The position numbers and the translations under genes are program-made. From a virus, in IMG/VR virus record IMGVR_UViG_3300028591_000173, positions 4,799 through 68,798 of that record: a DNA stretch of 64,000 nt. One strand, 5' to 3'. Below, one piece after another: positions 17,404 through 64,000 of this stretch (the stretch's first letter is position 1; every line of letters starts with the position of its first letter). The notes beneath the pieces are model-generated. The model worked only from the letters and a program-made list of their open reading frames with translations. It made no database searches and was not told the DNA's origin.

Positions 17404-17437
17404 AAACCAACAAGGCAAGGCAAGGAGAGAAAAAAAG

Positions 17438-23417: not shown

Positions 23418-23494
23418 CGGGACGTAGCACAGCTTGGTAGTGCGCCTGGTTCGGGACCAGGAGGTCGTGGGTTCGAATCCCATCGTTCCGACCA
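23418..23494 (+). tRNA. tRNA-Pro(CGG): tRNA-Pro (anticodon CGG)
   Basis: hand-folded cloverleaf: C1-G72, D arm GCAC/GTGC, anticodon loop TTCGGGA, T loop TTCGAAT, A73, CCA. Confidence 0.75.
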
Positions 23495-23524
23495 ATTCGA
23501 ATATGCAAAAATAAAATGAAATGC

Positions 23525-23554
23525 TTGACTATTGATAACAAACAATGGTAAAGT
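23525..23554 (+). promoter_or_regulatory. promoter-like TTGACT-N18-TAAAGT inside the tRNA array
   Basis: hexamers 23525-23530 / 23549-23554. Confidence 0.35.
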
Positions 23555-23593
23555 GATCGTGCTGAGGGGAAATCCTCGGCGAAAACCTGTCAT

Positions 23594-23668
23594 CGCGGGG
23601 TGGAGCAGCGGTAGCTCACTAGGTTCATACCCTAGAGGCCGTGGGTCCGAGTCCCACCCCCGCAACCA
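23594..23668 (+). tRNA. tRNA-Met(CAT): tRNA-Met (anticodon CAT), initiator-like C1:A72 mismatch
   Basis: acceptor CGCGGGG/CCCCGCA, anticodon loop TTCATAC, T loop TCCGAGT, CCA. Confidence 0.7.
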
Positions 23669-23669
23669 T

Positions 23670-23743
23670 GCCGCAGTAGTATAGTGGCAGTACCTCTGCT
23701 TCCCAAGCAGATGGCGCGGGTCCGATTCCCGTCTGCGGCTCCA
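23670..23743 (+). tRNA. tRNA-Gly(CCC): tRNA-Gly (anticodon CCC)
   Basis: acceptor GCCGCAG/CTGCGGC, U73, anticodon loop TTCCCAA, CCA. Confidence 0.75.
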
Positions 23744-23763
23744 ACCGAAAACCAAAGAAACAC

Positions 23764-23839
23764 GCCCACTTAGCTCAGAGGATAGAGCGACGACCTCCTA
23801 AGTCGTAGGCCGAGGGTTCGAGTCCTTCAGCGGGCGCCA
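23764..23839 (+). tRNA. tRNA-Arg(CCT): tRNA-Arg (anticodon CCT)
   Basis: TAGCTCAG D region, anticodon loop CTCCTAA, T loop TTCGAGT, CCA; one A:C mismatch in acceptor. Confidence 0.7.
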
Positions 23840-24052
23840 AAAAAGAAACTCAAGCCGCCAAAACAAACCACCAATTCACCACCTAAGCGCAAGGTCTTTG
23901 TAAGAGTGGGCGGCGTGTAGGGGTTAGGGCTGTAAACTCCCTAACCCTCAACCTAAGGACATAAGGCGCCTATTATAAACGACCAGTTCCGGAAAATTTT
24001 CTTTCAAAACTGACGAAAGGGGAGGGGACAACCGGGGCGCCGCCATCATAAT

Positions 24053-24127
24053 TGGGGTATAGCCAAGCGGTAAGGCTCCGGACTCTGAATCCGGGATGCG
24101 CTGGTCCGATCCCAGCTACCCCAACCA
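24053..24127 (+). tRNA. tRNA-Gln(CTG): tRNA-Gln (anticodon CTG)
   Basis: U1-A72, 3-bp D stem as in bacterial tRNA-Gln, anticodon loop CTCTGAA, CCA. Confidence 0.75.
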
Positions 24128-24133
24128 TTTGAT

Positions 24134-24210
24134 GCCTGGGTAACCGAACTGGCATAGGTACTGGCCTCAGAAGCTAGGTTTTGCGGGTCCGAATCCCGCC
24201 CTGGGCACCA
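24134..24210 (+). tRNA. tRNA-Leu?(CAG): tRNA with anticodon CAG (Leu by anticodon) but type-I architecture (5-nt variable loop), A73
   Basis: acceptor GCCTGGG/CCTGGGC (two G:U), anticodon stem CTGGC/GCTAG, loop CTCAGAA, T arm GCGGG-TCCGAAT-CCCGC, CCA. Confidence 0.55.
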
Positions 24211-24256
24211 TCAAAAGGTTGTAATCGGCCCCGTCGGGCCATTATGATAGATATGC

Positions 24257-24332
24257 GCCTGATTAGCTCAGCGGTCAGAGCAGCCGCCTCGTAAGCGGCA
24301 GGTCGGAGGTTTGATTCCTTCATCAGGCACCA
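24257..24332 (+). tRNA. tRNA-Thr(CGT): tRNA-Thr (anticodon CGT)
   Basis: acceptor GCCTGAT/ATCAGGC, TAGCTCAG, anticodon loop CTCGTAA, CCA. Confidence 0.75.
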
Positions 24333-24340
24333 CACAGGAT

Positions 24341-24414
24341 GGGGGCGTAGTTAAGCGGGATAATATCGGTTCCGCAGACCGAAGCCAGGGGTTCGACCCC
24401 CCTCGCCTCCACCA
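24341..24414 (+). tRNA. tRNA-Ala(CGC): tRNA-Ala (anticodon CGC) with G3:U70; unusual C33
   Basis: acceptor GGGGGCG/CGCCTCC, anticodon stem TCGGT/ACCGA, loop TCCGCAG, CCA. Confidence 0.55.
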
Positions 24415-31237: not shown

Positions 31238-31314
31238 GCTCCATTAGCTCAGCGGTCCAGAGCGGGCGCCTTATAAGCGCTAGGTCGGCGGTTCGAACCC
31301 GTCATGGAGCACCA
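31238..31314 (+). tRNA. tRNA-Ile(TAT): tRNA-Ile (anticodon TAT, reads AUA)
   Basis: acceptor GCTCCAT/ATGGAGC, TAGCTCAGCGG, anticodon loop CTTATAA, T loop TTCGAAC, A73, CCA. Confidence 0.7.
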
Positions 31315-32621: not shown

Positions 32622-32644
32622 GAGCGGGGCATCCCGCTCTTTAT
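32622..32644 (+). terminator. intrinsic terminator GAGCGGG-GCAT-CCCGCTC + TTTAT
   Basis: 7-bp GC stem directly after the SPFH stop. Confidence 0.5.
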
Positions 32645-32727
32645 GGGCCCATGGTTCAAAGGCAGAACGGGCGGCAAAGACCGTCAGACCCGCGTTCGAT
32701 CCGCGGTGGACCCAACTGAAAAAAGAT

Positions 32728-35399: not shown

Positions 35400-36947
35400 G
35401 TGAGGACCGACATTTTCACAGAAGAGAACGGCGTAAGGGACTTCGACGTACAGAAGATATTCGGCAAAGGCTACAACAACGGCCTCTTTTTCAATTTCAA
35501 GGGGAGATACCGCTTCTATGTCGGCTCCCGTTCGTCCAAGAAATCCCAGAACATGCTTGGGTATGAGCCGATACTCAAGATCCTCTCCGACCCGAGGAGG
35601 AACATCGTCATGTGCCGTCAGAACGATGTCGACAACAAGAATTCCACGTACGCGAACCTCATAAAATGCATAGAGGATCTGGGCCTCACATCCGAATTCG
35701 CCATAAGGAAGCAGCCGCTTGAGATCGAATACAAGAGGACCGGGCAGATGATAGTCTTCAAAGGCCTCAACAACCCTACCAGCATCACCTCGTCCAAATT
35801 CCCGCATGGCGAGCTTACGGACATCTACATAGAAGAGGCCTACGAATGCCAGAATTATGACGATTTCCTCAAGCTCGACGGCTCCCTCCGCGTCAGCGGC
35901 GAGCTTGCCAAGGAGATAGGCATACAGATAACCTGCGTCATGAACCCATGGTCCCCGGACCATTGGATCTTCACCGAGATATTCAGGGGAAGGCTCGAGC
36001 CGACCGAGGAATACATGGAGACCCACAAATACGACGATTACAGGGACGACGACTACGTCGGGCCTTTCGGCAAGGGCCTCTACCTCCACCAGTCCAACTA
36101 CAAGATCAACGAATTCAGGGACAGGGAGAGCTGGGATCCCGCGGCCGAGCAGATGAAGAAGAGGTCGCCTGAGCTCTACAAGCCGAACTTCCTCGGGCTT
36201 TTCGGGGCCACCACCGGCCTCGCCTACCCGGAATTCTCCACGGCCTGCTACGTCACCGCCCAGGAAGTCATGTCCATGACCGACATAACCGAATTCGCCA
36301 TAGGCATCGACACCGGCCTCTCAAACGGCGAGGGCAAGAAGATAACCATAAAGAAGGGCGAGGACCCGGACCTGAAGATTCGCTCCGCCACGACCATGTC
36401 GCTCGTGGGCGTCACGAGGGATTTCGGCAAGGTCATCGTCGTCGACGAGTACTTCCACTCGAACGACATGTCCTCCAACCAGACCAACACCGACAACAGG
36501 GAGAGCCTGAAGCACCCTGAGCTCATAAAGCAGTGCATCCTCTACATATCGAAGTGGATCGACAAGTACGGGAGGAACCAGACCAAGGGCAACCTGCTCA
36601 TGAAAGGCACGATAAACGTCTACGTGGACAACGCCGACATAGCCACCATACAGGGCCTCGAGATGGAGCTCAGAAGGGTGGGCCTGTTCAACGTCAACGT
36701 GATGGGCTGCACCAAGAAGAGCATCCAGACCCGCGTCGACTTCACGAGGATCCTGATGAGCTACGACTCGTTCAAGATATGCGCCGAGAACTGCCCGAAC
36801 GGCATCAGGGAGTACAAGGCCGCGAGGAAAGGCGAGAAAGGCGAGCCGAGGGCCCCTGGCAACGACCACTACATCGACAGCTGCGACTATGCGTGGGCCC
36901 CATTCTGCACAGAGCTGACCCTCTGGAAATCGTTCAAGGAGCATTAG
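35400..36947 (+). CDS. terL: terminase large subunit (ATPase + nuclease)
   Basis: 515 aa; deviant Walker A VGSRSSKKS, Walker B DIYIEEAYE, nuclease motifs GIDTG / VDEYFH; GTG start with SD aggaag. Confidence 0.75.
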   Translation: MRTDIFTEENGVRDFDVQKIFGKGYNNGLFFNFKGRYRFYVGSRSSKKSQNMLGYEPILKILSDPRRNIVMCRQNDVDNKNSTYANLIKCIEDLGLTSEFAIRKQPLEIEYKRTGQMIVFKGLNNPTSITSSKFPHGELTDIYIEEAYECQNYDDFLKLDGSLRVSGELAKEIGIQITCVMNPWSPDHWIFTEIFRGRLEPTEEYMETHKYDDYRDDDYVGPFGKGLYLHQSNYKINEFRDRESWDPAAEQMKKRSPELYKPNFLGLFGATTGLAYPEFSTACYVTAQEVMSMTDITEFAIGIDTGLSNGEGKKITIKKGEDPDLKIRSATTMSLVGVTRDFGKVIVVDEYFHSNDMSSNQTNTDNRESLKHPELIKQCILYISKWIDKYGRNQTKGNLLMKGTINVYVDNADIATIQGLEMELRRVGLFNVNVMGCTKKSIQTRVDFTRILMSYDSFKICAENCPNGIREYKAARKGEKGEPRAPGNDHYIDSCDYAWAPFCTELTLWKSFKEH

Positions 36948-43595: not shown

Positions 43596-43805
43596 ATGAA
43601 AGACGAGAACAAGCAAAGCATCGACAGCCGCGTCGCCATCTATCTCAATGACGACAAGACCTATACGGTCCGCAGAGCCGATAAGGGCTGGACCATACAA
43701 AGCGGCATCAAGACGCCGGATGAGGCGCTCGCCATCAAGAGAGCGTACGTCTTCGGATACATCGACGGCAGAGAGGAAACCAAGGAGGAGCCGAAACAAC
43801 AATGA
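43596..43805 (+). CDS. hypothetical protein
   Basis: internal ATG of ORF 43545. Confidence 0.45.
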   Translation: MKDENKQSIDSRVAIYLNDDKTYTVRRADKGWTIQSGIKTPDEALAIKRAYVFGYIDGREETKEEPKQQ

Positions 43806-44467
43806 ACGAGAATTACGAAAGGGCGATAGCCTTAGCCGAGAGGCTTAAAAACGAGGGGTGGGCCATCCACTCCATCGACGTCGACAAGAGAGAAGTCAAC
43901 ATCAGCAAATACTACGCGAGCCTATCAGTGTGGTTCAGCGTCGAGAGCGAATACCGCGTCAAGATCAGCATCAAAGACGCCTATGAGAGCGAACATTACA
44001 GATACGCCGAATCAGACGAAAACGGCTTCATCGAGACCATCGTCAAGATGCTCAAAGAGTTCAGCCACGACAACTTCCGGCTCGTCACCGTCAACAGATA
44101 CGGCAAGAGCTGGGACGGGCATGACAGATACGAGTTTCGCTATTGCTCAGACGGCTCCTCGCTGATCAAGTCGCTGGTCGACGACCACTACGACAAGTCA
44201 TTGGACAGGGAGAACATATTCTCGCTCGAGAGACACGAGACGCAATACCCGAACCCATTGATGAAACTCATCGTCGAGAGGGTCAGCGGAGTGCCTGACG
44301 AGCTCAGGGACCATTACTTGCTCAAAGAGAGCACGATCATCTTCAAATGCTCCCACATCGAGTACAGGGACAACGGGCAAGGCAAACCTTCCCAAGAGGA
44401 AAGAGAGAGAAGGACCTACTACGCCTTGGTCGACTTCACCCAAAACAAGAACGAAAGAAGAGGATGA
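43802..44467 (+). CDS. hypothetical protein
   Basis: 221-aa ORF. Confidence 0.55.
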   Translation: MNENYERAIALAERLKNEGWAIHSIDVDKREVNISKYYASLSVWFSVESEYRVKISIKDAYESEHYRYAESDENGFIETIVKMLKEFSHDNFRLVTVNRYGKSWDGHDRYEFRYCSDGSSLIKSLVDDHYDKSLDRENIFSLERHETQYPNPLMKLIVERVSGVPDELRDHYLLKESTIIFKCSHIEYRDNGQGKPSQEERERRTYYALVDFTQNKNERRG

Positions 44468-53339: not shown

Positions 53340-53636
53340 ATGAGATACGCGAGGATGAGGGACGGCTCGATCATTGAGAGGAAAGCCGGGAACTACGCCA
53401 TCCCAAACCCAGAGGATATCGTCAGGGAATCCGACGACCTGGAGAGCCTCTTCGACGGGATCATATTCAAGGACACCTGCGCGAACAGGCTCCGCTTCGT
53501 CGACATAAACGCCGCGTGGGACATCCTCGGGGCCGCCCTGTTCAAAGAGACCGTAAGGGGATACGTCGAGACCGAGGAGGGCCTCAGGTACGCCGCGAGG
53601 CTCAGCCCAAGCGGGGAAGGGTGGGAGCTGCTATGA
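53340..53636 (+). CDS. family B-like small protein (MRYARMRDG ... GEGWELL)
   Basis: SD gggagggg. Confidence 0.5.
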   Translation: MRYARMRDGSIIERKAGNYAIPNPEDIVRESDDLESLFDGIIFKDTCANRLRFVDINAAWDILGAALFKETVRGYVETEEGLRYAARLSPSGEGWELL

Positions 53637-54373
53637 GGCGCATAATGCTGGCGATGAGCCCGGAACGGGCCAAGCTCGCCCTTGAGGGGAGGCTGAAGGA
53701 CGAGATCCGCAAGACATTCCCGAAATGCGAATTGCCCTGCGAGGTGTTCATATACGTGACGAAGGGGGAGGACATCCTCATCGCGTATGAGGACTATGAC
53801 TACGATAGTATGAGTTACTATAGCCCTGAATACGCACTCATACCGAAAACCCTCTTCGCCAAGAAACCCAGCAAAGACGATGAGGATTACAGCCTCTACG
53901 AAAGCGAGCGCGATGCCTACAGATACTACAAGAACGATTTTGACAAGACGCAGCACGACCATGAGTGGAAGCTCAACGGCAAAGTGGTTGCCAAGTTCAC
54001 CTTAAACAAAGTCGGTGAAATACATAACTTCCCATATGGGTACGAAATGTTTGTGAGCAATGCAGACATTAGAAGAGAAGGAGAAATTTGCCAAAAAGCC
54101 TGCCTAACAAGCGACGAACTTAGAGAATATCTTCCTTGTGACAAAGAAAGATATGGCTACGCTTGGCATATCGACAACCTTGTGATCTTCGACGAGCCGA
54201 AAGAGCTGAAAGACTTCGTCGGATTCGGCACCCCGACATACGAGCAGACCAGATCGCTCGTCGAGCTGTCCGGCAAGCCTTATTCCAAAGAGACCTACAG
54301 AGAGCATTGCGAGCGTTTCGGATACACTCTCAAGAGACCGCCTCAGTCGTGGCAGTACGTGGAGGAGATATAG
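53633..54373 (+). CDS. hypothetical protein, possible ASCH-like N-terminus; contains a low-GC internal segment
   Basis: internal ATG of ORF 53516. Confidence 0.5.
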   Translation: MRRIMLAMSPERAKLALEGRLKDEIRKTFPKCELPCEVFIYVTKGEDILIAYEDYDYDSMSYYSPEYALIPKTLFAKKPSKDDEDYSLYESERDAYRYYKNDFDKTQHDHEWKLNGKVVAKFTLNKVGEIHNFPYGYEMFVSNADIRREGEICQKACLTSDELREYLPCDKERYGYAWHIDNLVIFDEPKELKDFVGFGTPTYEQTRSLVELSGKPYSKETYREHCERFGYTLKRPPQSWQYVEEI

Positions 54374-57258: not shown

Positions 57259-58896
57259 ATGTCCATAACCGTGCAGGAATACATCAGGAAGAAAGCCCTT
57301 GGGCTGGTCGGCCTCATAGAGACGCCGATCGACCCGCGGGTCCGCGAGGAGAGGCTGACGTTCGTCAACAACATCAACGAGGACATCCAGAACAAGCTCC
57401 ACGAGTACTGCGTCTGGTACGGCGGGGACTCAGAGGAGATCCTGAACTACTACAGCAGGGCGCAGGTCCTCGATTTCAACTACGACCCGATCTACAACAG
57501 GAACAAGAAGTCCTACTTCTGGGCGGTCAGCGCCGTCGAGCAGGACATAAAGAGGACCCACTCAGGGCAGCCGAGGAACATCGTCGACACATTGGTCAAC
57601 ATAGTCGGCATCCCGAGGATAAGCGTCGGGTCCGGCGACAAGCTGAAGAAGCTCGACGGGAGGCTTCAGGAGATCCTCAGGGAGAACCACTTCACGAGGA
57701 TGGTCATGCAGCAGGCCAGGCCGATGACGTTCGTCGAGGGCTGGGGCGCATGGAAGATCAACTGGGACAAAGAGATATCGGACTGCCCGATACTGCTCTA
57801 CTACCGCGCCGACGCGGTCGATTTCGTGTATTCGTCCGGCAGGCTCAGGGCGATCATATACAAAGACTATTTCCAGGACGAGAACCGCAAGGACTACGTC
57901 CTGTTCGAGATACGCAGGAGGGACGGCAAGGACCTCGTCATCGAGAAGGAGCTCTTCAGGATGACGCCCGCCTCCGATCTGCTCACCCCGGTGAAGCTGG
58001 AATCGCTCCCTCAGCTGAAGGACGTCAGAAAGACGATCAGGGTCAGCAACTACAAGGGGTTCCTCGGATATCCGTGCATAATATACGAGGACAGCAACGC
58101 GGACACCTACGGCAGATCGATATTCACCGGCAAGATAGACCTGTTCGACGACCTCGACCAGTGCCTGTCCCAGTCGGCCAATACCGTGCGCAGATCCACC
58201 ACGCTGGAGTACTTCGACACGATGTACCTCGAGAAGGACGAGAAGACCGGCATGCCTAAGATGCCTCACGCCTTCGACAGGAAGTACGTCGCGTTCAAGG
58301 GCTTCAGGGGAGGCGACGGGCAGTCCGGCACGACCGGCCCTGTCACCGTAACCCAGCCTAAGCTCGACATCGCGCAGTACAGCGAGGAGGCCACGGCCAT
58401 ATTGCTCCAGATCATATCGGGCATCATGTCGCCGGCCACCCTCGGCATAGACATCGCCAAGAAGGACAACGCCCAGGCGCAGCGCGAGAAGGAGAAGGTC
58501 ACGATCTTCACCAGGAACACCGTCAAGGACGAGGAAGGCGAGACCTTCAGGAGGGTCGCGAACGACCTTCTGATCGCCGATGAGATGATGAGGACCAACG
58601 AGTGCACCTGCCATAACTACGACATCTCGGTCACGTACGACGAGTTCGCCGACTCCTCATTCGAGAACAAGCTCGAATCCGTGCTGGGAGGCTGGAGGGA
58701 AGGCCTGATCAGCGACGAGACGGCCGTCGACTACCTCTACGGCAAGAGCTGGTCCAAGGAGAGGAAGGACGAGGAGCTCGCCAGGATAAAGGCCAAGCGC
58801 GAGGAGTCCGAGAAGGATCCGTTCGCCCAGGGCGCCTATGGCGAGATGGGCGCGGAGAACCCTCACAACGATGCTCTCGAGGACGTTGAGATATAG
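57259..58896 (+). CDS. portal protein (SPP1 gp6-like), acidic C-terminus
   Basis: 545 aa; size and acidic tail; followed by a head-morphogenesis-like gene. Confidence 0.6.
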   Translation: MSITVQEYIRKKALGLVGLIETPIDPRVREERLTFVNNINEDIQNKLHEYCVWYGGDSEEILNYYSRAQVLDFNYDPIYNRNKKSYFWAVSAVEQDIKRTHSGQPRNIVDTLVNIVGIPRISVGSGDKLKKLDGRLQEILRENHFTRMVMQQARPMTFVEGWGAWKINWDKEISDCPILLYYRADAVDFVYSSGRLRAIIYKDYFQDENRKDYVLFEIRRRDGKDLVIEKELFRMTPASDLLTPVKLESLPQLKDVRKTIRVSNYKGFLGYPCIIYEDSNADTYGRSIFTGKIDLFDDLDQCLSQSANTVRRSTTLEYFDTMYLEKDEKTGMPKMPHAFDRKYVAFKGFRGGDGQSGTTGPVTVTQPKLDIAQYSEEATAILLQIISGIMSPATLGIDIAKKDNAQAQREKEKVTIFTRNTVKDEEGETFRRVANDLLIADEMMRTNECTCHNYDISVTYDEFADSSFENKLESVLGGWREGLISDETAVDYLYGKSWSKERKDEELARIKAKREESEKDPFAQGAYGEMGAENPHNDALEDVEI

Positions 58897-59731
58897 GATA
58901 TCCTGGCCCCTGGTCAGATGCGCGGCAGCGATATGCCGCGTTTTCTCGTCGGGGCATGGCAGGCAGCCTGCGCTGAAGGCTATCCGTGCTGAGATCTCAG
59001 GGCTGCCCGATCGGGCGCCGCTCACCAGGGACGAATGCTCCAGGGCGTGGCGGATCGCGTCGGGGCTCCAGAGGGAGCTGACCAGAAAGGCCGACCGCTA
59101 TCTGATGTCGGATCATGACCGTGCTGAGGCGGCCTACCTGGCGTTCAGGGATCTGATGCCGGGGATGATGAGGGCCATCGGGGAGCTCTCAAGGGACGCC
59201 GACTCCAGGATAAGGCTCGAGAGGGCCGAGAGGATCGCGTCCAGGGGGATCCTGTACCTGTGCTCATCCCACGCAGGATGCGCCGAAGGCCACCTGGAAT
59301 ACCAGGGGAGGCTCTACGTGAGCTCGCACTGGAGGGAGAGGTGCCGCGACGCCAGGCTCAGGAAGAGGCTTGCCAAGATGATCAGGGACAGGCATATCAG
59401 GACGGTCGAGTGGGCGATGGGCGCGCCGGCGTACCTGCTGACCAGGCCGAACTGCCGCCACAGGATGGTGAGGGTCCCGATCGAGGAGGCCCTGGGCTCC
59501 ACCGTGCGGAAGATGCTGAGGAGGAGGGATCTCATCCAGACCGACCCCGAAGAACCGGCTTGGGCCGGGGAGATCAGGAGGAAGAGGGCCCAGCTCAGGA
59601 TACTCCGATTCCTCCAGGGGGCCCTACCGTGCTCCGCTTTGGATGGGGACATAAGGAAGCTCAGCCGATCCATAAGGAAAACGGCCGCCAGGCATAAGCC
59701 TGACGACCGAGTCCCGAACCCCGCGGCATGA
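58871..59731 (+). CDS. putative minor head / head morphogenesis protein (Arg-rich)
   Basis: internal ATG of ORF 58838; position after portal. Confidence 0.4.
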   Translation: MLSRTLRYRISWPLVRCAAAICRVFSSGHGRQPALKAIRAEISGLPDRAPLTRDECSRAWRIASGLQRELTRKADRYLMSDHDRAEAAYLAFRDLMPGMMRAIGELSRDADSRIRLERAERIASRGILYLCSSHAGCAEGHLEYQGRLYVSSHWRERCRDARLRKRLAKMIRDRHIRTVEWAMGAPAYLLTRPNCRHRMVRVPIEEALGSTVRKMLRRRDLIQTDPEEPAWAGEIRRKRAQLRILRFLQGALPCSALDGDIRKLSRSIRKTAARHKPDDRVPNPAA

Positions 59732-59889
59732 TATGGATTTTTTGGTAAGGTAATGTTTGGCAAGAAAAGTGAGGTTTCCGCCGCGGGTATGCGATGCCGG
59801 TTTGGGCCGGCGGATCGTATCCTCTGAGTGAGGTGGGGAGGTTAGGGGCCTCCCCTCGTATTGTATTATGCTTGACTTATGTTAATTTG

Positions 59890-60135
59890 TCAAGCGTTTT
59901 CTTTTATTGCTGACAAGAAGCTGACTGGGACGAGCGATAGGATCCTCTCCCTGACGATGAAGTCGAGCATGAAGTTGCCCTTCTTCCCGGATTTCCTCTC
60001 CGGTCGGACCGAGGCGAACCTGATCCCCCTCTTCGTCTCAAGGCCCTCGATCTTCCCGATGAAGTAGCCTTGGCCCTTCTGATCCCAGGCCTTGACGGTC
60101 TGGCCTTTCGTGAACTTGTTTTTGGTATCCTTCAT
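59890..60135 (-). CDS. hypothetical protein
   Basis: SD aaggagg upstream of ATG at 60135. Confidence 0.5.
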   Translation of the reverse strand: MKDTKNKFTKGQTVKAWDQKGQGYFIGKIEGLETKRGIRFASVRPERKSGKKGNFMLDFIVRERILSLVPVSFLSAIKENA

Positions 60136-60205
60136 ATGCGGATCCTCCTTTTCGCAAGCTCATTCTAGCCTATTGATTATCATAAGTCAAGAGGTTTTTT
60201 TGATT

Positions 60206-60394
60206 TTAGATCATATAATCGTATTTTTTCTTGATCCTGCCCAACATCCTGGCGGCTTTCTTCCAGAACATCGAGCTTTTCCTGACGGGTTTCCCCACGA
60301 CTGGGTCGGCGAAGACGTGGAATCTCCCTGTGAACGTGTCCAGGTCGATGCCGCTTGAGCCGTTGCGGCCTGAGCTCCTGTAGATCTTCATCAT
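60206..60394 (-). CDS. small hypothetical protein
   Basis: ORF. Confidence 0.4.
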   Translation of the reverse strand: MMKIYRSSGRNGSSGIDLDTFTGRFHVFADPVVGKPVRKSSMFWKKAARMLGRIKKKYDYMI

Positions 60395-60588
60395 CTGCGT
60401 TTCCTCTTCCCGAGGGGGATCGCGAAGGATTCCTTGGCCTTGCTGAGCTCCTTGGCCTTGTTCAGGCTCTCAAGCTCTTTCCTGAACGCCGCGTACCTGG
60501 CGCATCCGTCGTGGCAGGCGGCATGCCTGTCCTCGCAGCCTTTGCATGGGGACATCAGCCCCCCGTTCCATCCGAATCCTGTGATCAT
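60391..60588 (-). CDS. Cys-rich small protein (CxxC...CxxxC)
   Basis: ORF. Confidence 0.45.
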   Translation of the reverse strand: MITGFGWNGGLMSPCKGCEDRHAACHDGCARYAAFRKELESLNKAKELSKAKESFAIPLGKRKRR

Positions 60589-60746
60589 CTTCCGGCTCCT
60601 CTCAGCGCCATCACCGCTTTGTTCATTATCTCGTTCATGCTCTTCTTGGTCCTCTTCGACCTGGTTCTCACGTACGCGTCCAGCTCAGGGGTGAGGTTGA
60701 CTGTGATGGATCTGCTCGCGTACGTGGCCTTGCCGTGCCGGCTCAT
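60585..60746 (-). CDS. ribbon-helix-helix (CopG/Arc-like) DNA-binding protein, 53 aa, not in ORF track
   Basis: MSRHGKATYASRSITVNLTPELDAYVRTRSKRTKKSMNEIMNKAVMAL; ATGA overlaps on both sides. Confidence 0.5.
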   Translation of the reverse strand: MSRHGKATYASRSITVNLTPELDAYVRTRSKRTKKSMNEIMNKAVMALRGAGR

Positions 60747-60943
60747 AGGTCCTCCTTCATCCTGATCAGCTCCGATGCGGAAAGCCCGAAGGCCCTCCTG
60801 AGCTTGTCCCAGGTCGATCGGCTGCCGCCGGATCTCCCGTTTTCGATGAGACAGTAGTTCGCGGTCGTGATCCCCAACCGTGCTGCCATCTCCCTCTGGG
60901 TGAGATCATGCCTGACCCTGAGTACTTTGAGTTCGGTCCTCAT
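60743..60943 (-). CDS. XRE-family HTH regulator
   Basis: LTQREMAARLGITTANYCLIENG. Confidence 0.65.
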   Translation of the reverse strand: MRTELKVLRVRHDLTQREMAARLGITTANYCLIENGRSGGSRSTWDKLRRAFGLSASELIRMKEDL

Positions 60944-61320
60944 GCCGCTTTCTCCCTCAGGTAGACGAAGATCGTCCCCTCTCTGACGCAGGCTTTCAGG
61001 CTGGCCCTGATCCTAAGCTCCCTGAACGCCTTCCTGATGACCGCCTCGACGGTGAGCCTCTCGTAAGGCTTCATGAAATCGATCCCGAAGACGTCGTAGG
61101 CCGGCGTCTCGATCTTCGGCCTCTCGTCCCCCCAGTACCAGAATATGACGACGTGGCTTGGGAACCCTTTCCGGATCTGCTTGCGCCTGACCGCCAGGAA
61201 AGCCCCCTCGCCGGCCAGCGCGACCCAGAACGCCTCAGGCGCCTTCTCGCTGAGCTCAGCGTCCTTGAGCTCCCTCGGGAACCTCTCTATCCCCATGTCT
61301 TTGATCTTTGCGTTCTCCAT
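60940..61320 (-). CDS. hypothetical protein, first gene of the - strand operon
   Basis: 126-aa ORF. Confidence 0.5.
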   Translation of the reverse strand: MENAKIKDMGIERFPRELKDAELSEKAPEAFWVALAGEGAFLAVRRKQIRKGFPSHVVIFWYWGDERPKIETPAYDVFGIDFMKPYERLTVEAVIRKAFRELRIRASLKACVREGTIFVYLREKAA

Positions 61321-61349
61321 ATTTATATACCTCTTTCTGTGTATGCCTT

Positions 61350-61379
61350 ATTCTATCGCCTATCATATGTAAATGTCAA
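61350..61379 (-). promoter_or_regulatory. sigma70-like promoter (- strand) TTGACA-N18-TAGAAT
   Basis: reverse complement of 61374-61379 / 61350-61355. Confidence 0.5.
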
Positions 61380-61408
61380 TAAAAAAATTATCGATGTTGA
61401 TCGGGACC

Positions 61409-61422
61409 CCCCTTACCGTGCT
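61409..61422. repeat. copy 1 of conserved motif CCCCTTACCGTGCT, flanked by GATCGGG direct repeats
   Basis: exact 14/15 match to the other copies. Confidence 0.7.
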
Positions 61423-61434
61423 CCGATCGGGCGC

Positions 61435-61458
61435 AAAAAGAAAAGGGGCCGAAGCCCC
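61435..61458 (-). terminator. intrinsic terminator (- strand) GGGGC-TTCG-GCCCC + TTTTCTTTTT
   Basis: 8 nt after the stop of 61466..62080. Confidence 0.7.
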
Positions 61459-61465
61459 GATCCGG

Positions 61466-62080
61466 TCAGTGCTGCCTGAAGTAGACCGACTGCCCTTTCT
61501 CCAGGGACCAGCAAGCCAGGCATTCGGGGCAATGCCCCCCGCATGGGATGGCCAGGTCCGGGATGTCCGGGTTGAGCTCGCCTTTCCTGAAGAGCACATA
61601 CGCGACCGGCAGCCTGTAAGGGTTGTCGACCCGGAATGACTTGCTCCAGGCGCTGAAGACGATTCTCAGGTTCTTGGGAATCCTGCCGCCGCGGCCTAAG
61701 TAGCCGTTGACGATGCCGAACTTCTTCGTGAAGCATAGGAACTTGACGCCCGGGCAGGCTTTCGCGACCTTCACCATCCCGAGGAAGTACGCGTCGTCGA
61801 CTATGTCCCCGACCGCATGCCAGCGGAAGTACTTATAGGAGACGAGCGAATCATTGAGGAATGAGACGATGTCGCCGAAGTACGCGTCGGAGTCCGCCAT
61901 ATAGCGCTCATAGTTGTGCCTGTGGGACTCCTGGACGTTCCTGAATAGGAAGTTGCCCCTCTTGCCGTAGCAGAGGCGCGCGCAGGGCGCGTCTTCCCTG
62001 CAGCTCATCTGGGGAGGCAGCGACACGCTTGGTATCTGCGAGCCCAGCTTCGAATTTGTCATTGAGATGTTGATTTCCAT
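61466..62080 (-). CDS. Cys-rich hypothetical protein (cassette 1); possibly DUF5131/Gp37-Gp68-like
   Basis: 204-aa ORF; SCREDAPCARLCYG and CGGHCPECLAC clusters. Confidence 0.55.
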   Translation of the reverse strand: MEINISMTNSKLGSQIPSVSLPPQMSCREDAPCARLCYGKRGNFLFRNVQESHRHNYERYMADSDAYFGDIVSFLNDSLVSYKYFRWHAVGDIVDDAYFLGMVKVAKACPGVKFLCFTKKFGIVNGYLGRGGRIPKNLRIVFSAWSKSFRVDNPYRLPVAYVLFRKGELNPDIPDLAIPCGGHCPECLACWSLEKGQSVYFRQH

Positions 62081-62099
62081 TTTCTTAACCTCTGACTAT

Positions 62100-62127
62100 A
62101 TATTACACTTACATACGCATATGTCAA
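62100..62127 (-). promoter_or_regulatory. promoter (- strand) TTGACA-N16-TAATAT
   Basis: reverse complement of 62122-62127 / 62100-62105. Confidence 0.45.
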
Positions 62128-62160
62128 GTAAATCTTTTGACGAATTTCATCTGATCACGA

Positions 62161-62203
62161 TGCACGGGCCTGGGAATCCGGATCCAGATGGGTTACCGTG
62201 CTG
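62161..62203. repeat. copy 2: inverted repeat TGCACGG...TTACCGTGCTG
   Basis: motif at 62193-62203. Confidence 0.65.
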
Positions 62204-62217
62204 CGATCGGGAGGCAT

Positions 62218-62243
62218 AAAAAAAGAGGCGGGTGATCCGCCTC
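62218..62243 (-). terminator. intrinsic terminator (- strand) GAGGCGG-ATCAC-CCGCCTC + TTTTTTT
   Basis: 17 nt after the stop of 62260..62523. Confidence 0.75.
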
Positions 62244-62259
62244 GATGCGACGCTGTCCG

Positions 62260-62523
62260 TCAGTCCTCGTCTTCCAGGAGCTCAGGCTCGCAGCCGGCTT
62301 TGTCGATGAGCCATTCCTTGAATGCCTCGTCAGGCGCGTCCGCGTCCTTGGTCAGCTCCCTGTATGCCTTGAGAAGGTCGACGGGGGTGTAGAAGTTGTC
62401 GTCGTAGGAGATGGCTTTGCTCTCGCCTTGGTAGTTCGCCATCACCCACATGCAATGCTCCTGTGAGTTGAAGAGCTCGACGTATGCGTCGCAGTAGTGG
62501 TTTTCGGTGTTCGGTTCTCTCAT
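62260..62523 (-). CDS. hypothetical acidic protein (cassette 2), start trimmed to ATG 62523
   Basis: SD aaggagg 7 nt upstream; the upstream part of track ORF 62260..62607 contains the promoter. Confidence 0.5.
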   Translation of the reverse strand: MREPNTENHYCDAYVELFNSQEHCMWVMANYQGESKAISYDDNFYTPVDLLKAYRELTKDADAPDEAFKEWLIDKAGCEPELLEDED

Positions 62524-62548
62524 ATACGAACCTCCTTTTCTATACCAT

Positions 62549-62577
62549 ATGTTAGCATCTCCTATGATATATGTCAA
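62549..62577 (-). promoter_or_regulatory. promoter (- strand) TTGACA-N17-TAACAT
   Basis: CCTATTGACATAT conserved with the 63303..63331 promoter. Confidence 0.55.
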
Positions 62578-62620
62578 TAGGTTTATTTGACTTTTATTAA
62601 CTTTCATCCAGATCAGATCG

Positions 62621-62665
62621 GAGCACGGAGGATCATCTGATGCCTGTCATCCCCTTACCGTGCTG
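62621..62665. repeat. copy 3: inverted repeat GAGCACGG-(22 nt)-CCCCTTACCGTGCTG
   Basis: motif 62651-62665. Confidence 0.7.
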
Positions 62666-62678
62666 GCTTTGGGCGCAT

Positions 62679-62710
62679 AAAAAAAAGAGGCAGAGCTAGC
62701 TGTCTGCCTC
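62679..62710 (-). terminator. intrinsic terminator (- strand) GAGGCAGA..TCTGCCTC + TTTTTTTT
   Basis: 10 nt after the stop of 62720..63274. Confidence 0.75.
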
Positions 62711-62719
62711 CCCTCCTTC

Positions 62720-63274
62720 CTAATCGCCTATAACCCAGAGGTAGTCTTCGGTCTGATTCCTTCTGTGAGGATTCAGGACGACGCTGACCAAGTCGTCTTT
62801 GTCGTAGTCGGGGTTCTCGATGATTCTGCCTTCGGAATCCTGCCCGGCTTCCTGAATCGACTGGGTGTCGTTCGTCACGCATTCCCCGTCTTTGTAGAGG
62901 AGATGCTCGCTGAACGCCATACCCGTCTCTTCGCTGAAGGCCTCGATTTCGCATCCCTTCGAGAGCTCTTTCAGGGTGGTTCCCATAAAGATGTCCGGGT
63001 GGTCGGTCTTCAGAAGGTCGTAGTAGGTGAGCTCGCCCTCGCACATACAGACATACAGGCTCCAAGCGCAGTACCCACTGACGAATTGGGTGAAGGTCCC
63101 GTCCCCGTTGTCGTGGACTTCATCGGCGTTCGCCTCGAAGACTCTCTGAAGGTGCTTGTGGGCCGGTTTGCCCTCACCGTAGTTGTAGTCGGCTTTCAGG
63201 CACTCAAGCACATTCTTGATGATGTTTTTGTCGCTACTTCTGATTTTCATCTCGTAGTCGCAGTAGTTCGGCAT
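62720..63274 (-). CDS. hypothetical Cys-containing protein (cassette 3), start trimmed to ATG 63274
   Basis: SD aaggaggg 8 nt upstream. Confidence 0.5.
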   Translation of the reverse strand: MPNYCDYEMKIRSSDKNIIKNVLECLKADYNYGEGKPAHKHLQRVFEANADEVHDNGDGTFTQFVSGYCAWSLYVCMCEGELTYYDLLKTDHPDIFMGTTLKELSKGCEIEAFSEETGMAFSEHLLYKDGECVTNDTQSIQEAGQDSEGRIIENPDYDKDDLVSVVLNPHRRNQTEDYLWVIGD

Positions 63275-63302
63275 ATCTATGCCCTCCTTTTCTTGTTGCC
63301 TT

Positions 63303-63331
63303 AATATTAAACCTATATAGGGCATATGTCA
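63303..63331 (-). promoter_or_regulatory. promoter (- strand) TTGACA-N17-TAATAT
   Basis: reverse complement of 63326-63331 / 63303-63308. Confidence 0.55.
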
Positions 63332-63374
63332 ATAGGGAATTAAGACTTTTATTAATTTTCTTATGAGCTCAGGA

Positions 63375-63419
63375 CAGCACGGGGCATGATCATCCGGATC
63401 GGATCCCCTTACCGTGCTG
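63375..63419. repeat. copy 4: inverted repeat CAGCACGGGG-(20 nt)-CCCCTTACCGTGCTG
   Basis: motif 63405-63419; spacer contains TGATCA / TCCGGA / GGATCC palindromes. Confidence 0.7.
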
Positions 63420-63440
63420 GCACATCGCCGGCGCGGCATG

Positions 63441-63466
63441 AAAAAAAGCGCCCTCGTTGGGGCGCT
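63441..63466 (-). terminator. intrinsic terminator (- strand) AGCGCCC-CAACGA-GGGCGCT + TTTTTTT
   Basis: 16 nt after the stop of 63482..63730. Confidence 0.75.
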
Positions 63467-63481
63467 CGCGAGAACCCTCGC

Positions 63482-63730
63482 TTAGAGGGTCTCGACTTTG
63501 AGCTTGGCTTCGAGTTGCTCGTAGACGGCTTTGGTGACGACGATGTCGGTTCCGCCCTCGAGGACGATTTTGTAGTTGCTCTCGTTCTCTTCGGTTCTCA
63601 CCTCGTTGCCATTCTCGTCGAAGAGTTTGGTAGGCTTGAGCTTGAGTTCCTTGACGGCGACGATTTTGTTGGTGTCGATGAGGGCGTCGGTTTCCTCGTG
63701 TTTGTGGTTGAGACGTTTGATTTTAAGCAT
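63482..63730 (-). CDS. hypothetical protein (cassette 4)
   Basis: 82-aa ORF, SD gagg. Confidence 0.5.
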   Translation of the reverse strand: MLKIKRLNHKHEETDALIDTNKIVAVKELKLKPTKLFDENGNEVRTEENESNYKIVLEGGTDIVVTKAVYEQLEAKLKVETL

Positions 63731-63800
63731 TGTTTTTTTCCTCGCTTTCTTTTTTTTGATTTAGGGGGAAGAGGTCTCTTTTTCTTCCCCCTATGCCTAT

Positions 63801-63829
63801 ATATTAAACTTATATATGGGACTTGTCAA
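63801..63829 (-). promoter_or_regulatory. promoter (- strand) TTGACA-N17-TAATAT, followed by a 5'-UTR hairpin GGGGGAAGA...TCTTCCCCC (63754-63791)
   Basis: reverse complement of 63824-63829 / 63801-63806. Confidence 0.5.
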
Positions 63830-63842
63830 CAACTTTTTAGAT

Positions 63843-64000
63843 TTATTTTATGTTCCTCACTTTGATGAGGTCTACGAGCATTCCACTCTTGTTGCGTTTC
63901 TCAATGAAAATGCATGCGTGTGGGACATTCTCAGGGACTTTGAAATGTTTTCCAAAGGCGAAAGCAGTCGCGTCAGCGTAGCTATAGAAAAAGCCTTTTT
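63843..64000 (-). CDS. partial CDS (C-terminal about 52 aa; start beyond window), cassette 5
   Basis: open frame to window edge, ends ...LIKVRNIK*. Confidence 0.35.
   Translation of the reverse strand, partial: KGFFYSYADATAFAFGKHFKVPENVPHACIFIEKRNKSGMLVDLIKVRNIK

What the first reader, a model, noticed from the sequence alone, without database searches (positions are those of the whole stretch)
61350..64000. Array of five or more autonomous promoter-ORF-terminator cassettes on the minus strand
From 61.4 kb to the window edge, each small - strand ORF (61466..62080, 62260..62523, 62720..63274, 63482..63730, partial 63843..) has its own transcription signals. Each has a sigma70 promoter with nearly identical -35 context (CCTATTGACATATG; -10 TAATAT/TAACAT), a strong SD, and its own GC hairpin plus T-tract terminator 8-17 nt past the stop. 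Unit-by-unit insulation of unrelated small proteins, opposite to the main transcription direction and next to the morphogenesis genes, is the architecture of a moron or anti-defence cargo island. The repeated promoter suggests the cassettes are added or exchanged as modules.
Basis: seen in the sequence. Interest (0 to 1): 0.8.

Follow-up and report, generated by a model that had tools for sequence, protein, structure and literature searches.

The report
Phage gene-cassette array with 7-base boundary
The small genes at the window edge are the end of a 13.7-kb block of about twenty self-contained promoter-gene-terminator cassettes in an uncultured 77.6-kb phage, and nearly every cassette is bounded by the same 7-base sequence (CCGTGCT), where related phages have gained, lost or swapped cassettes.

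Summary
Four complete minus-strand ORFs in 61350-64000 each have a near-consensus sigma-70 promoter, an SD and a hairpin+T terminator; the partial fifth ORF has no terminator.

It is the tail of a larger structure. I closed the genome (77,646 bp) with identical public contigs. The array spans about 59.75-73.6 kb. It holds all 20 strong minus-strand sigma-70 promoters and sits between the portal/adjacent late gene and the scaffold/major-head genes.

It lies between terminator and next promoter in 72 of 74 long spacers across six relatives (portal identity 62-80%, GC 34-55%). It occurs once in the other 58.6 kb of the window. Its orientation flips part-way along the array.

In three close relatives, cassette insertions, deletions, replacements and one translocation have junctions at the heptamer: 41 of 110 alignment ends lie within 5 nt, against 4.8 expected.

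Best reading: a probable early-gene region built like T4 PeSL cassettes, in an unrelated phage of probable Firmicutes hosts, with a dedicated boundary sequence. "Exchanged as modules" is supported. "Moron/anti-defence island" is not: the proteins match Api92/DUF1281, GP88 and HTH families or nothing. How the heptamer acts is unresolved.

The parts
63843..64000 (-). 3' part of a 74-aa cassette ORF (complete in L014 9664-9888); no terminator of its own
63801..63829 (-). sigma-70-type promoter (TTGACA-17-TAATAT) of the 82-aa cassette, followed by a 5'-UTR hairpin at 63791-63764
63482..63730 (-). 82-aa ORF; homologues in 5 of 6 relatives; confident all-beta plus C-terminal helix model with weak LytTR/Sac7d/RemA-like similarity
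63439..63467 (-). intrinsic terminator (8-bp stem plus T7)
63376..63418 (-). boundary element: AGCACGG-N29-CCGTGCT inverted pair (heptamers at 63412-63418 and 63376-63382)
63304..63332 (-). promoter (TTGACA-17-TAATAT) of the 184-aa cassette
62720..63274 (-). 184-aa ORF, Api92/DUF1281-like fold, phrog_2715
62679..62710 (-). intrinsic terminator (GAGGCAGA/TCTGCCTC plus T8)
   Evidence: read from sequence
62622..62664 (-). boundary element: AGCACGG-N29-CCGTGCT inverted pair (heptamers at 62658-62664 and 62622-62628)
62549..62577 (-). promoter (TTGACA-17-TAACAT, with TG) of the 87-aa cassette
62260..62523 (-). 87-aa ORF with no family match; absent from relative L028
62218..62243 (-). intrinsic terminator
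62196..62202 (+). boundary heptamer CCGTGCT (AGCACGG on the cassette strand); its partner arm is degenerate (CCCGTGCA)
62100..62127 (-). promoter (TTGACA-16-TAATAT) of the GP88 cassette
61466..62080 (-). 204-aa ORF, Pfam GP88 (PF17338)
61437..61458 (-). intrinsic terminator (GGGGC/GCCCC plus T-tract)
61416..61422 (+). boundary heptamer CCGTGCT (single copy)
61350..61379 (-). promoter (TTGACA-18-TAGAAT) of the 5-gene operon
60206..61320 (-). operon of 126, 66 (HTH_31/HTH_3), 53, 65 and 62 aa with overlapping stops and starts
59890..60190 (-). promoter (60190-60162) plus 81-aa ORF (60135-59890), the last protein cassette
59680..59893 (-). promoter (59893-59865), about 180 nt of structured non-coding sequence, and terminator (59709-59682): candidate small RNA cassette at the convergence with the late genes
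58679..59633 (+). four further CCGTGCT copies (58679, 58984, 59119, 59627), all in one orientation, inside the 3' end of the portal gene and the next late gene

Best explanation
The finding is the promoter-distal end of a hyperplastic region, probably the early region, of an uncultured ~77.6-kb tailed phage of probable Firmicutes hosts. The region is 13.7 kb on the minus strand (window ~59.75 kb to 9.6 kb beyond the window edge).

How it is built. It consists of about 20 insulated modules. Each has an AT-rich UP-like tract, a near-consensus sigma-70 promoter, an SD, one or a few small and mostly orphan ORFs (in some modules no ORF at all), and an intrinsic terminator.

How it works (inferred). 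Host RNA polymerase would fire all modules at infection. The terminators would keep expression of each module independent and stop read-through into the convergent head genes.

The boundary (shown). Each module is delimited by a short conserved boundary: terminator T-tract, 10-50 nt, then the invariant heptamer CCGTGCT or its complement. Cassette insertions, deletions, replacements and a translocation among close relatives have their junctions at or beside this heptamer.

Mechanism of exchange (inferred). I take this to be short-homology recombination between boundary sequences of co-infecting or intracellular relatives, as proposed for T4 PeSLs. Each exchange then delivers a ready-to-express gene. 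What recognises the heptamer, and why its orientation flips along the array, is not established.
For: Anatomy:
- Window ORFs, promoters and terminators.
- L014 is 100% identical to the window over 10,519 nt and extends it.
- The circle closes at 77,646 bp.
- 20 strong promoters on the minus strand all lie in 59,893-73,601; only 6 are scattered on the plus strand. The tool scan gives 35 promoter-like sites against 10.5 +/- 3.1 in shuffles.

Heptamer:
- 36 copies lie in 58.7-72.0 kb and 1 elsewhere in the genome.
- L018 has 22 copies against 0.6 expected.
- Only the 7-mer carries information; there is no second element at fixed spacing.
- 72 of 74 long spacers in six phages have it, and 0 of 5 short spacers do.

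Exchange at the heptamer:
- Nucleotide-level junctions are shown. One example is a 132-aa cassette flanked only by a CCGTGCT direct repeat. Another is a 60-bp deletion exactly between two copies.
- 41 of 110 HSP ends lie within 5 nt of a copy, against 4.8 expected and a maximum of 16 in 2000 randomisations.

Hyperplasticity: 2-10 of 26 array genes are detectable in relatives whose late genes are all conserved.

Precedent: PeSL papers PMC2839356 and PMC4122927.
Against: - Timing of expression is inferred from promoter consensus only; there are no transcript data.
- Host and lifestyle are unknown, and about 40 small ORFs were not scanned.
- Junction statistics come from four closely related contigs (L014, L015, L027, L028). 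HSP ends are not independent events; there are about 10 distinct events.
- Some junctions are not at the heptamer: two in the -10/SD region, one in a T-tract, and the L028 deletion inside two ORFs.
- Seven bases are too few for ordinary homologous recombination. The model therefore needs the flanking 20-30 nt of imperfect homology, a relaxed phage recombinase, or a dedicated enzyme.
- Simple boundary-homology does not explain the orientation switch.
- It also does not explain the copies inside the portal gene, or the scarcity elsewhere (1 copy against about 7.5 expected).
Confidence: 0.7

Rival explanations
1. One reading: a moron or anti-defence cargo island. On this view the cassettes are accessory genes inserted next to the head genes that counter host defence or benefit a lysogen.
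For: - Each unit has its own promoter and terminator.
- The block interrupts the head module, lying between the portal/next late gene and the scaffold/major head genes.
- Content is highly variable and mostly orphan. Early orphan genes of lytic phages often include anti-defence genes (general knowledge).
Against: - No match to any anti-defence, Acr, toxin or defence family.
- The block holds all strong minus-strand sigma-70 promoters of the genome and several HTH regulators, so it looks like the core early region rather than add-ons.
- No integrase or other lysogeny gene was seen in the products that have Pfam or PHROG results.
Confidence: 0.25
2. CCGTGCT is the binding site of a regulator, phage or host, that controls every early promoter, for example for early shut-off. 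On this view the junctions coincide with it only because every viable cassette must carry one.
For: - Position relative to the gene start is fairly constant: the last copy lies a median 114 nt before the ATG, IQR 101-127, which I estimate as roughly -85 to -95 from the transcription start.
- The motif is identical in phages of 34-55% GC, which argues for a phage-encoded reader.
- The array encodes HTH proteins and a family-conserved 82-aa protein with a weak LytTR/RemA-like fold.
Against: - The site is a single asymmetric 7-mer with no partner half-site.
- Its orientation relative to the promoter flips along the array.
- Copies occur inside the portal gene, far from any promoter.
- Junctions fall exactly at the motif edge in about 8 independent junctions, which selection for mere presence does not predict.
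Confidence: 0.2
3. CCGTGCT (or AGCACGG) is a Chi-like signal for the host AddAB/RecBCD enzyme. On this view it is clustered to protect the DNA or to stimulate recombination, as in the Chi-rich lambdoid phages LLS and MD8.
For: - The motif is short and asymmetric, strongly clustered and strand-polar.
- There is precedent for 20-32 oriented, terminally clustered Chi sites in phages (PMC12315714).
- A 3' end that terminates at Chi could give junctions at the motif (inference).
Against: - The same heptamer is kept in phages of 34% and 55% GC, which probably infect different genera. From my own knowledge of published Chi sequences, not checked in a paper here, known Chi differs between Firmicutes genera.
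- There are two opposed groups rather than one orientation.
- The motif is scarce in the rest of the genome, which Chi does not predict.
- The phage has its own PD-(D/E)XK exonuclease (DUF3799) and a DUF669 protein.
- The genome ends are unknown.
Confidence: 0.12
4. The heptamers are polar sites of a phage-encoded DNA transaction. This could be a site-specific nick or recombinase core, or a replication-fork barrier arranged as two opposed groups like a Ter trap. Breaks or stalled forks at the sites would then make them recombination hotspots.
For: - There are two opposed orientation groups with a switch 5.4-8.8 kb past the portal start in this phage and at a similar distance in the relatives, with Mann-Whitney p of 1e-5 to 0.08 across the six.
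- Copies extend into the portal gene, using fixed codons.
- The motif is scarce elsewhere.
- It is conserved across the whole family.
- Junctions fall exactly at the motif.
Against: - No recombinase, HUH nuclease or Tus/RTP-like protein was identified.
- There is no hairpin signal around the motif.
- There is no GC-skew switch inside the array.
- Seven bases is short for known sites of these kinds.
Confidence: 0.15
5. The pattern is an artefact of chance or of metagenome assembly.
For: All related sequences are metagenome contigs.
Against: - The motif is in the window itself.
- Identical sequence was recovered from independent samples and assemblers.
- A 7-mer is far below any assembly k-mer length.
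- Enrichment is 22 copies against 0.6 expected in L018.
Confidence: 0.02

Closest known systems
PeSL (promoter-early stem-loop) regulatory cassettes of T4-type phages (Arbiol et al. 2010, PMC2839356; Comeau et al. 2014, PMC4122927)
   Same: - Dense repeats of a strong sigma-70-like promoter with an AT-rich upstream tract plus a terminator stem-loop.
- They sit in hyperplastic regions in front of orphan genes.
- Indels and replacements between close relatives have their ends in the repeats.
- Each moved gene carries its own transcription signals.
   Different: - The phage lineage is unrelated: the portal is under 31% identical to any phage in INPHARED, and the nearest are phages of Firmicutes.
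- The stem-loop is a separate canonical terminator upstream of the promoter rather than overlapping it.
- The conserved crossover point is an invariant 7-mer between terminator and promoter, not the ~100-bp promoter motif.
- The 7-mer is strand-polar, flips orientation along the array, is kept across 34-55% GC genomes and is nearly absent from the rest of the genome.
- The cassettes form one block of 13.7 kb rather than several hyperplastic regions.
Integron gene cassettes and attC sites
   Same: - A tandem array of small, mostly orphan genes.
- Each unit ends in a recombination site whose only conserved parts are 7-base cores.
- Cassette boundaries fall at the core.
- Some sites here are inverted pairs (AGCACGG-N29-31-CCGTGCT).
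- ORF-less cassettes exist.
   Different: - No integrase was found.
- Most sites are single heptamers with no inverted partner, and there is no hairpin signal.
- Every cassette has its own promoter and terminator.
- Site orientation is not uniform.
Short conserved boundary (linker) sequences proposed for phage mosaicism, as summarised in PMC3029335
   Same: Short conserved intergenic sequences at module junctions that could guide recombination.
   Different: [quoted passage not shown] Here one is present at 72 of 74 long spacers and is used repeatedly.
Terminally clustered, oriented Chi sites in lambdoid phages LLS and MD8 (PMC12315714)
   Same: Dozens of copies of a short asymmetric motif, clustered in one part of a phage genome with strong orientation bias.
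   Different: - Here there are two opposed groups.
- The motif sits at cassette boundaries.
- It is conserved across phages of very different GC content.
- The host Chi is unknown.
Morons of temperate phages
   Same: A gene with its own promoter and terminator placed among late genes.
   Different: About 20 in tandem form the genome's main sigma-70 transcription block. No lysogeny functions were found.

Membership tests
PeSL cassettes (T4-type) | Strong sigma-70-like promoter with an AT-rich tract upstream of the -35 | tested here: met
   21 sites with 10-12 of 12 matches on the cassette strand of L014 1-14100 and none on the other strand. AT-rich tracts are visible in every spacer.
PeSL cassettes (T4-type) | Stem-loop acting as terminator or attenuator within the same composite element | tested here: met
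   A hairpin+T follows each cassette. It lies about 100-150 nt upstream of the promoter rather than overlapping it as in most PeSL classes.
PeSL cassettes (T4-type) | Concentrated in hyperplastic regions, in front of orphan genes | tested here: met
   Only 5 of 26 array products hit Pfam. 2-10 of 26 are shared with relatives.
PeSL cassettes (T4-type) | Indel and replacement junctions between close relatives lie in the elements | tested here: met
PeSL cassettes (T4-type) | Belongs to T4-like myoviruses | tested here: not met
   The best portal matches in INPHARED are at 24-31% identity, to Streptococcus, Anaerostipes, Clostridium and Solobacterium phages of 33-41 kb plus unnamed metagenome phages.
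PeSL cassettes (T4-type) | Excised cassette mini-circles | not testable with these tools
   Needs PCR or reads from infected cells.
Integron | IntI-type tyrosine recombinase next to the array | tested here: inconclusive
   No Phage_integrase hit among the products with Pfam or PHROG results. About 40 small ORFs in 28-57 kb were not scanned.
Integron | attC: imperfect inverted repeat that folds, with a 7-base core and inverse core | tested here: not met
   Inverted pairs occur only in part of the array. Most spacers in L018-L020 have one heptamer. Mean folding z is about 0 around the motif.
Integron | Promoterless cassettes read from a common promoter | tested here: not met
   Each cassette has its own promoter.
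Integron | Cassette boundaries at the core site | tested here: met
Chi site | Short asymmetric motif with orientation bias relative to DNA ends or replication | tested here: inconclusive
   The motif is polar but in two opposed groups. The genome ends and the origin are unknown, and no skew switch was seen.
Chi site | Same motif over-represented and skewed in the host chromosome and recognised by host AddAB/RecBCD | not testable with these tools
   The host is unknown.
Moron | Own promoter and terminator | tested here: met
Moron | Carried by a temperate phage and expressed from the prophage | tested here: inconclusive
   No integrase or prophage context was found in the products and contigs examined. 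The contigs are phage-sized (70-78 kb) and one assembles as a circle. Expression was not testable.
Known anti-defence proteins (Acr, Ocr/Ard, Tad, Gad and similar) | Sequence or fold match of the cassette proteins | tested here: not met
   [not shown]

The most novel reading that the evidence does not exclude
CCGTGCT is the target of a dedicated, strand-polar, phage-encoded DNA transaction: a site-specific nick, a recombinase core or a polar fork barrier. This would turn the early region into an integron-like gene-capture platform for ready-to-express cassettes. It would be a purpose-built mechanism for phage mosaicism, shared by a large family of uncultured phages of probable Firmicutes hosts.
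Probability: 0.3. Interest if true: 0.9.

Novelty: new variant of a known kind. Interest (0 to 1): 0.75.

Why it matters
How phage genomes become mosaic is an old open question. [quoted passage not shown] The other is random illegitimate joining followed by selection. [quoted passage not shown]

Here a single invariant 7-mer sits at 72 of 74 long spacers in six phages of a family for which more than 1,300 portal homologues were found. It coincides with real insertion, deletion, replacement and translocation junctions. That makes the question directly testable: mutate the heptamers and score cassette exchange in mixed infection.

The motif's polarity switch, its presence inside the portal gene and its scarcity elsewhere suggest an active DNA-level signal whose reader is unknown.

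In practical terms, the array marks a rich source of orphan, probably early proteins and of promoter-terminator-bounded non-coding RNAs. It also defines natural safe sites for inserting genes into such phages.

Tried and rejected
- DNA search of the array against INPHARED phages: no match.
- Peptide-pattern scans of IMG/VR with the 297-aa and 184-aa proteins: nothing.
- Exact 15-mer scan of IMG/VR: 13 single hits, not examined further; one copy per contig is what chance would give.
- Rfam on the window, L014 and L018-L020: only tRNAs, and nothing for the promoter-terminator-bounded non-coding units. These units are not homologous between distant relatives.
- A second conserved element at fixed spacing from the heptamer (promoter or dimer-site idea): none.
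- Secondary words in the spacers (TGATC, CCTGA, GGATG and others) are only moderately enriched. GATC density is ordinary.
- Hairpin context of the heptamer (attC- or HUH-like idea): mean z about 0. The inverted pairs in the window fold only modestly, z -2.4 to -0.3.
- GC/AT-skew switch inside the array as a sign of an origin or terminus: none.
- Homologue of L018's Sigma70_r4 + alpha-CTD protein at the matching window position: none.
- Recombinase search among the larger plus-strand ORFs: none.
- One look-up was wasted: no record for window 43802-44467.
- The literature holds no paper with either heptamer as a word and no description of integron-like phage early arrays.
- The host could not be identified, so the Chi hypothesis could not be tested on a host chromosome.

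Full report
**1. The observation**

- The consensus scan finds 9 promoter-like sites in 59500-64000 against 2.8 +/- 1.9 in shuffles, all on the minus strand.
- One lies in front of each ORF: first hexamers at 63829, 63332, 62577, 62127 and 61379. Further sites lie at 60190 and 59893.
- Hairpin+T terminators follow the 82-, 184-, 87- and 204-aa ORFs, 7-16 nt after the stop (the one after the 184-aa ORF was read).
- The partial ORF at the window edge has no terminator.
- The "nearly identical -35 context" is exact for one promoter and near-exact for a second.
This is a conserved block after each T-tract that ends in AGCACGGTAAGGGG. In two spacers an inverted CCGTGCT follows about 30 nt later.

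**2. The array is much larger than the window shows**

An exact look-up of the 82-aa protein returned contig L014. It is 100% identical to the window over 10,519 nt and extends it by 9,730 nt. A look-up of the first window ORF returned L024, from a 77,787-bp contig.
- The three pieces close into a 77,646-bp circle. The extra 141 nt is my reading of the assembler's k-mer overlap.
- The minus-strand block runs from about 59,750 to 73,600 and is the only minus-strand block in the genome.
- All 20 minus-strand sites with at least 10 of 12 promoter matches lie inside it. The plus strand has 6 scattered ones.
- The tool scan of L014 1-14100 gives 35 promoter-like sites against 10.5 +/- 3.1 expected. 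All 21 of the best sites are on the cassette strand.
- On one side lie the portal and the next late gene. On the other lie a scaffold-like protein and the major head protein. The block therefore splits the head module.
- Elsewhere the genome encodes primase, helicase and terminase, ten tRNAs, a DUF3799 PD-(D/E)XK exonuclease and a DUF669 protein.
- No integrase was seen among the products that have Pfam or PHROG results.
- The portal has more than 1,300 metagenomic homologues, on contigs of up to 70-78 kb. No phage in INPHARED exceeds 31% identity, and the nearest are phages of Firmicutes.
- I infer that this is the region read by host RNA polymerase at the start of infection. This rests on promoter consensus only.

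**3. The heptamer**

Counts and position:
- CCGTGCT occurs 25 times on the cassette strand between L014 1765 and 11103, all in spacers. AGCACGG occurs in the portal-proximal spacers.
- In the closed genome there are 36 copies in 58.7-72.0 kb and one elsewhere. In the window, 11 of 12 copies lie in 58,679-63,418. For the remaining 58.6 kb about 7.5 would be expected.
- Only the seven bases carry information. There is no second element at fixed distance.

Conservation in relatives:
- Five more distant relatives were fetched through portal homologues: L018-L022, with portal identity 62-80% and GC 34-55%.
- All have the same minus-strand array after the portal.
- In all of them the same heptamer sits between terminator and promoter, while its flanks are unrelated.
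- L018 has 22 copies against 0.6 expected.
- Over the six phages, 72 of 74 spacers of 120 nt or more carry at least one copy, and none of 5 short spacers does. The first copy lies a median 63 nt after the stop. The last lies a median 114 nt before the next ATG.

Orientation:
- Going from the portal into the array, copies read CCGTGCT on the plus strand, then come as inverted pairs, then read CCGTGCT on the minus strand.
- Mann-Whitney p is 1.4e-5, 1.6e-5, 2.6e-4 and 2.5e-3 in four phages, and 0.04 and 0.08 in the two where pairs dominate.

Copies inside the portal gene sit at conserved residues and use fixed codons (TAC CGT GCT; xCC GTG CTx), even in 34%-GC genomes.

**4. Cassettes turn over at the heptamer**

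Three close relatives (L015, L027, L028; about 87-99% nucleotide identity in shared parts) differ from the window genome by roughly ten events. At nucleotide level:
- A 132-aa cassette in L027 is flanked by nothing in common except a direct repeat of CCGTGCT.
- A 54-aa DUF4314 cassette is inserted at the copy at L014 1979.
- A 60-bp unit is deleted exactly between two copies (L014 7684 and 7744).
- Two replacements resume homology at a copy (L014 3237 and 5612), while their other ends lie in the -10/SD region.
- The L015 replacement ends 8 nt after a copy on one side and in a T-tract on the other.
- In L028 the 99-aa cassette has moved, with both ends at copies, and new 135- and 160-aa cassettes appear.

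Of 110 alignment ends among the four contigs, 28 fall inside a copy and 41 within 5 nt. Random positions give 4.8, with a maximum of 16 in 2000 trials. These ends are not independent, but the distinct junctions listed above number about eight.

One event inside the finding's own coordinates is not motif-mediated. L028 lacks window 61654-63058, which removes the 87-aa cassette and fuses the 184-aa and GP88 ORFs.

At larger distance, 2-10 of the 26 array genes are detectable in the roughly 10 kb of array sampled from each relative, and in different order. All five flanking late genes are conserved in five of the six relatives and four in the sixth.

**5. What the proteins are**
- The 204-aa protein is GP88 (PF17338) and the 66-aa protein is an HTH.
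- PADLOC gives nothing beyond the HTH.
- Nothing supports or excludes an anti-defence role.

**6. Mechanism**

Shown:
- the modular anatomy;
- the near-universal heptamer at the 3' boundary of each module;
- its conservation and polarity;
- its coincidence with junctions.

Inferred:
- Early expression by host polymerase, and insulation by the terminators.
- Exchange by recombination between boundary sequences. In the window the conserved composite is about 30-44 nt (family D1). That could be enough for a relaxed phage recombinase.

This is the PeSL model with a sharper crossover point.

It does not explain the orientation switch, the portal-gene copies or the scarcity elsewhere. These point to an additional DNA-level role.
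- A regulator site is hard to reconcile with a single asymmetric 7-mer whose orientation flips.
- Host Chi (precedent) is hard to reconcile with identity across 34-55% GC phages and with two opposed groups.
- A phage-encoded polar nick, recombination or fork-barrier site fits more of the facts but has no identified enzyme. It also has no hairpin support and no skew support.

**7. Comparison and verdict**

The structure works like PeSL cassettes but is not a member of that T4-specific set. It shares the 7-base-core and cassette-boundary logic of integrons but fails their other defining features.

I rate it a new variant of a known kind. The moron/anti-defence label is unproven.

Noticed in passing
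window 59680-59893 (-): A consensus promoter (TTGACA-17-CATAAT) is followed by about 180 nt with no ORF and a strong terminator that overlaps the 3' end of the convergent late gene. The RNA folds far better than shuffles (-78.3 kcal/mol, z -5.8). It is conserved at 96-97% in three close relatives and has no Rfam match. It is a candidate small RNA.
   Followed up: partly
L014 3009-3215 and 4003-4300 (beyond the window edge); L018 ~17240-17710 (-); L020 ~13520-13980 (-): Heptamer-bounded cassettes that have a perfect sigma-70 promoter and a terminator but no ORF (about 180-480 nt). They have no Rfam match and are not homologous between distant relatives. They may be phage non-coding RNAs carried as cassettes.
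   Followed up: partly
L024 6275-8936, with window 57259-59731: The 13.7-kb minus-strand array lies between the portal/next late gene and the scaffold-like and major head genes. The head module is therefore split by the array. The terminase lies 20 kb upstream of the portal (35400-36947).
   Followed up: partly
window 58679-58685 and the matching positions of the L018-L022 portal genes: CCGTGCT copies inside the portal gene sit at conserved residues (YRA, xVL) and keep GC-rich codons even in 34%-GC relatives. None occur in the 10 kb upstream of the portal in those relatives.
   Followed up: yes
window 63764-63791 (-): A G5/C5 hairpin (GGGGGAAGA...TCTTCCCCC) lies immediately downstream of the promoter at 63829, in the 5' leader of the 82-aa gene, and is followed by an A-rich tract. 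It could be a leader structure or an attenuator.
   Followed up: no
L014 5719-5910 (-) and 901-1056 (-); L018 16418-16645 (+): Single small genes are oriented against the rest of the array, each with its own promoter and terminator. These are inverted cassettes.
   Followed up: no
L028 10001-10393 (matches window 61654-63058, which L028 lacks): A relative carries a deletion from inside the 184-aa ORF to inside the GP88 ORF. This gives a 130-aa fusion ORF and removes the 87-aa cassette. The junction is not at a heptamer.
   Followed up: partly
window 23418-24414, 31238-31314, 32644-32716: Nine tRNA genes are present: a cluster of eight (Pro, Met, Gly, Arg, Gln, Leu, Thr, Ala) and an isolated Ile(tat). 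Most have C-starting anticodons. ARAGORN also calls a tRNA-like sequence with a 2-base anticodon at 32644.
   Followed up: no
L018 7057-7902: A relative encodes a 281-aa protein with Sigma70_r4 and RNA polymerase alpha-CTD domains about 2 kb upstream of its portal. The window ORF at the matching position (53516-54373) is unrelated.
   Followed up: partly
window 10480-15597 (+): A 1705-aa ORF has no PHROG or Pfam match.
   Followed up: no
[not shown]
   Followed up: partly
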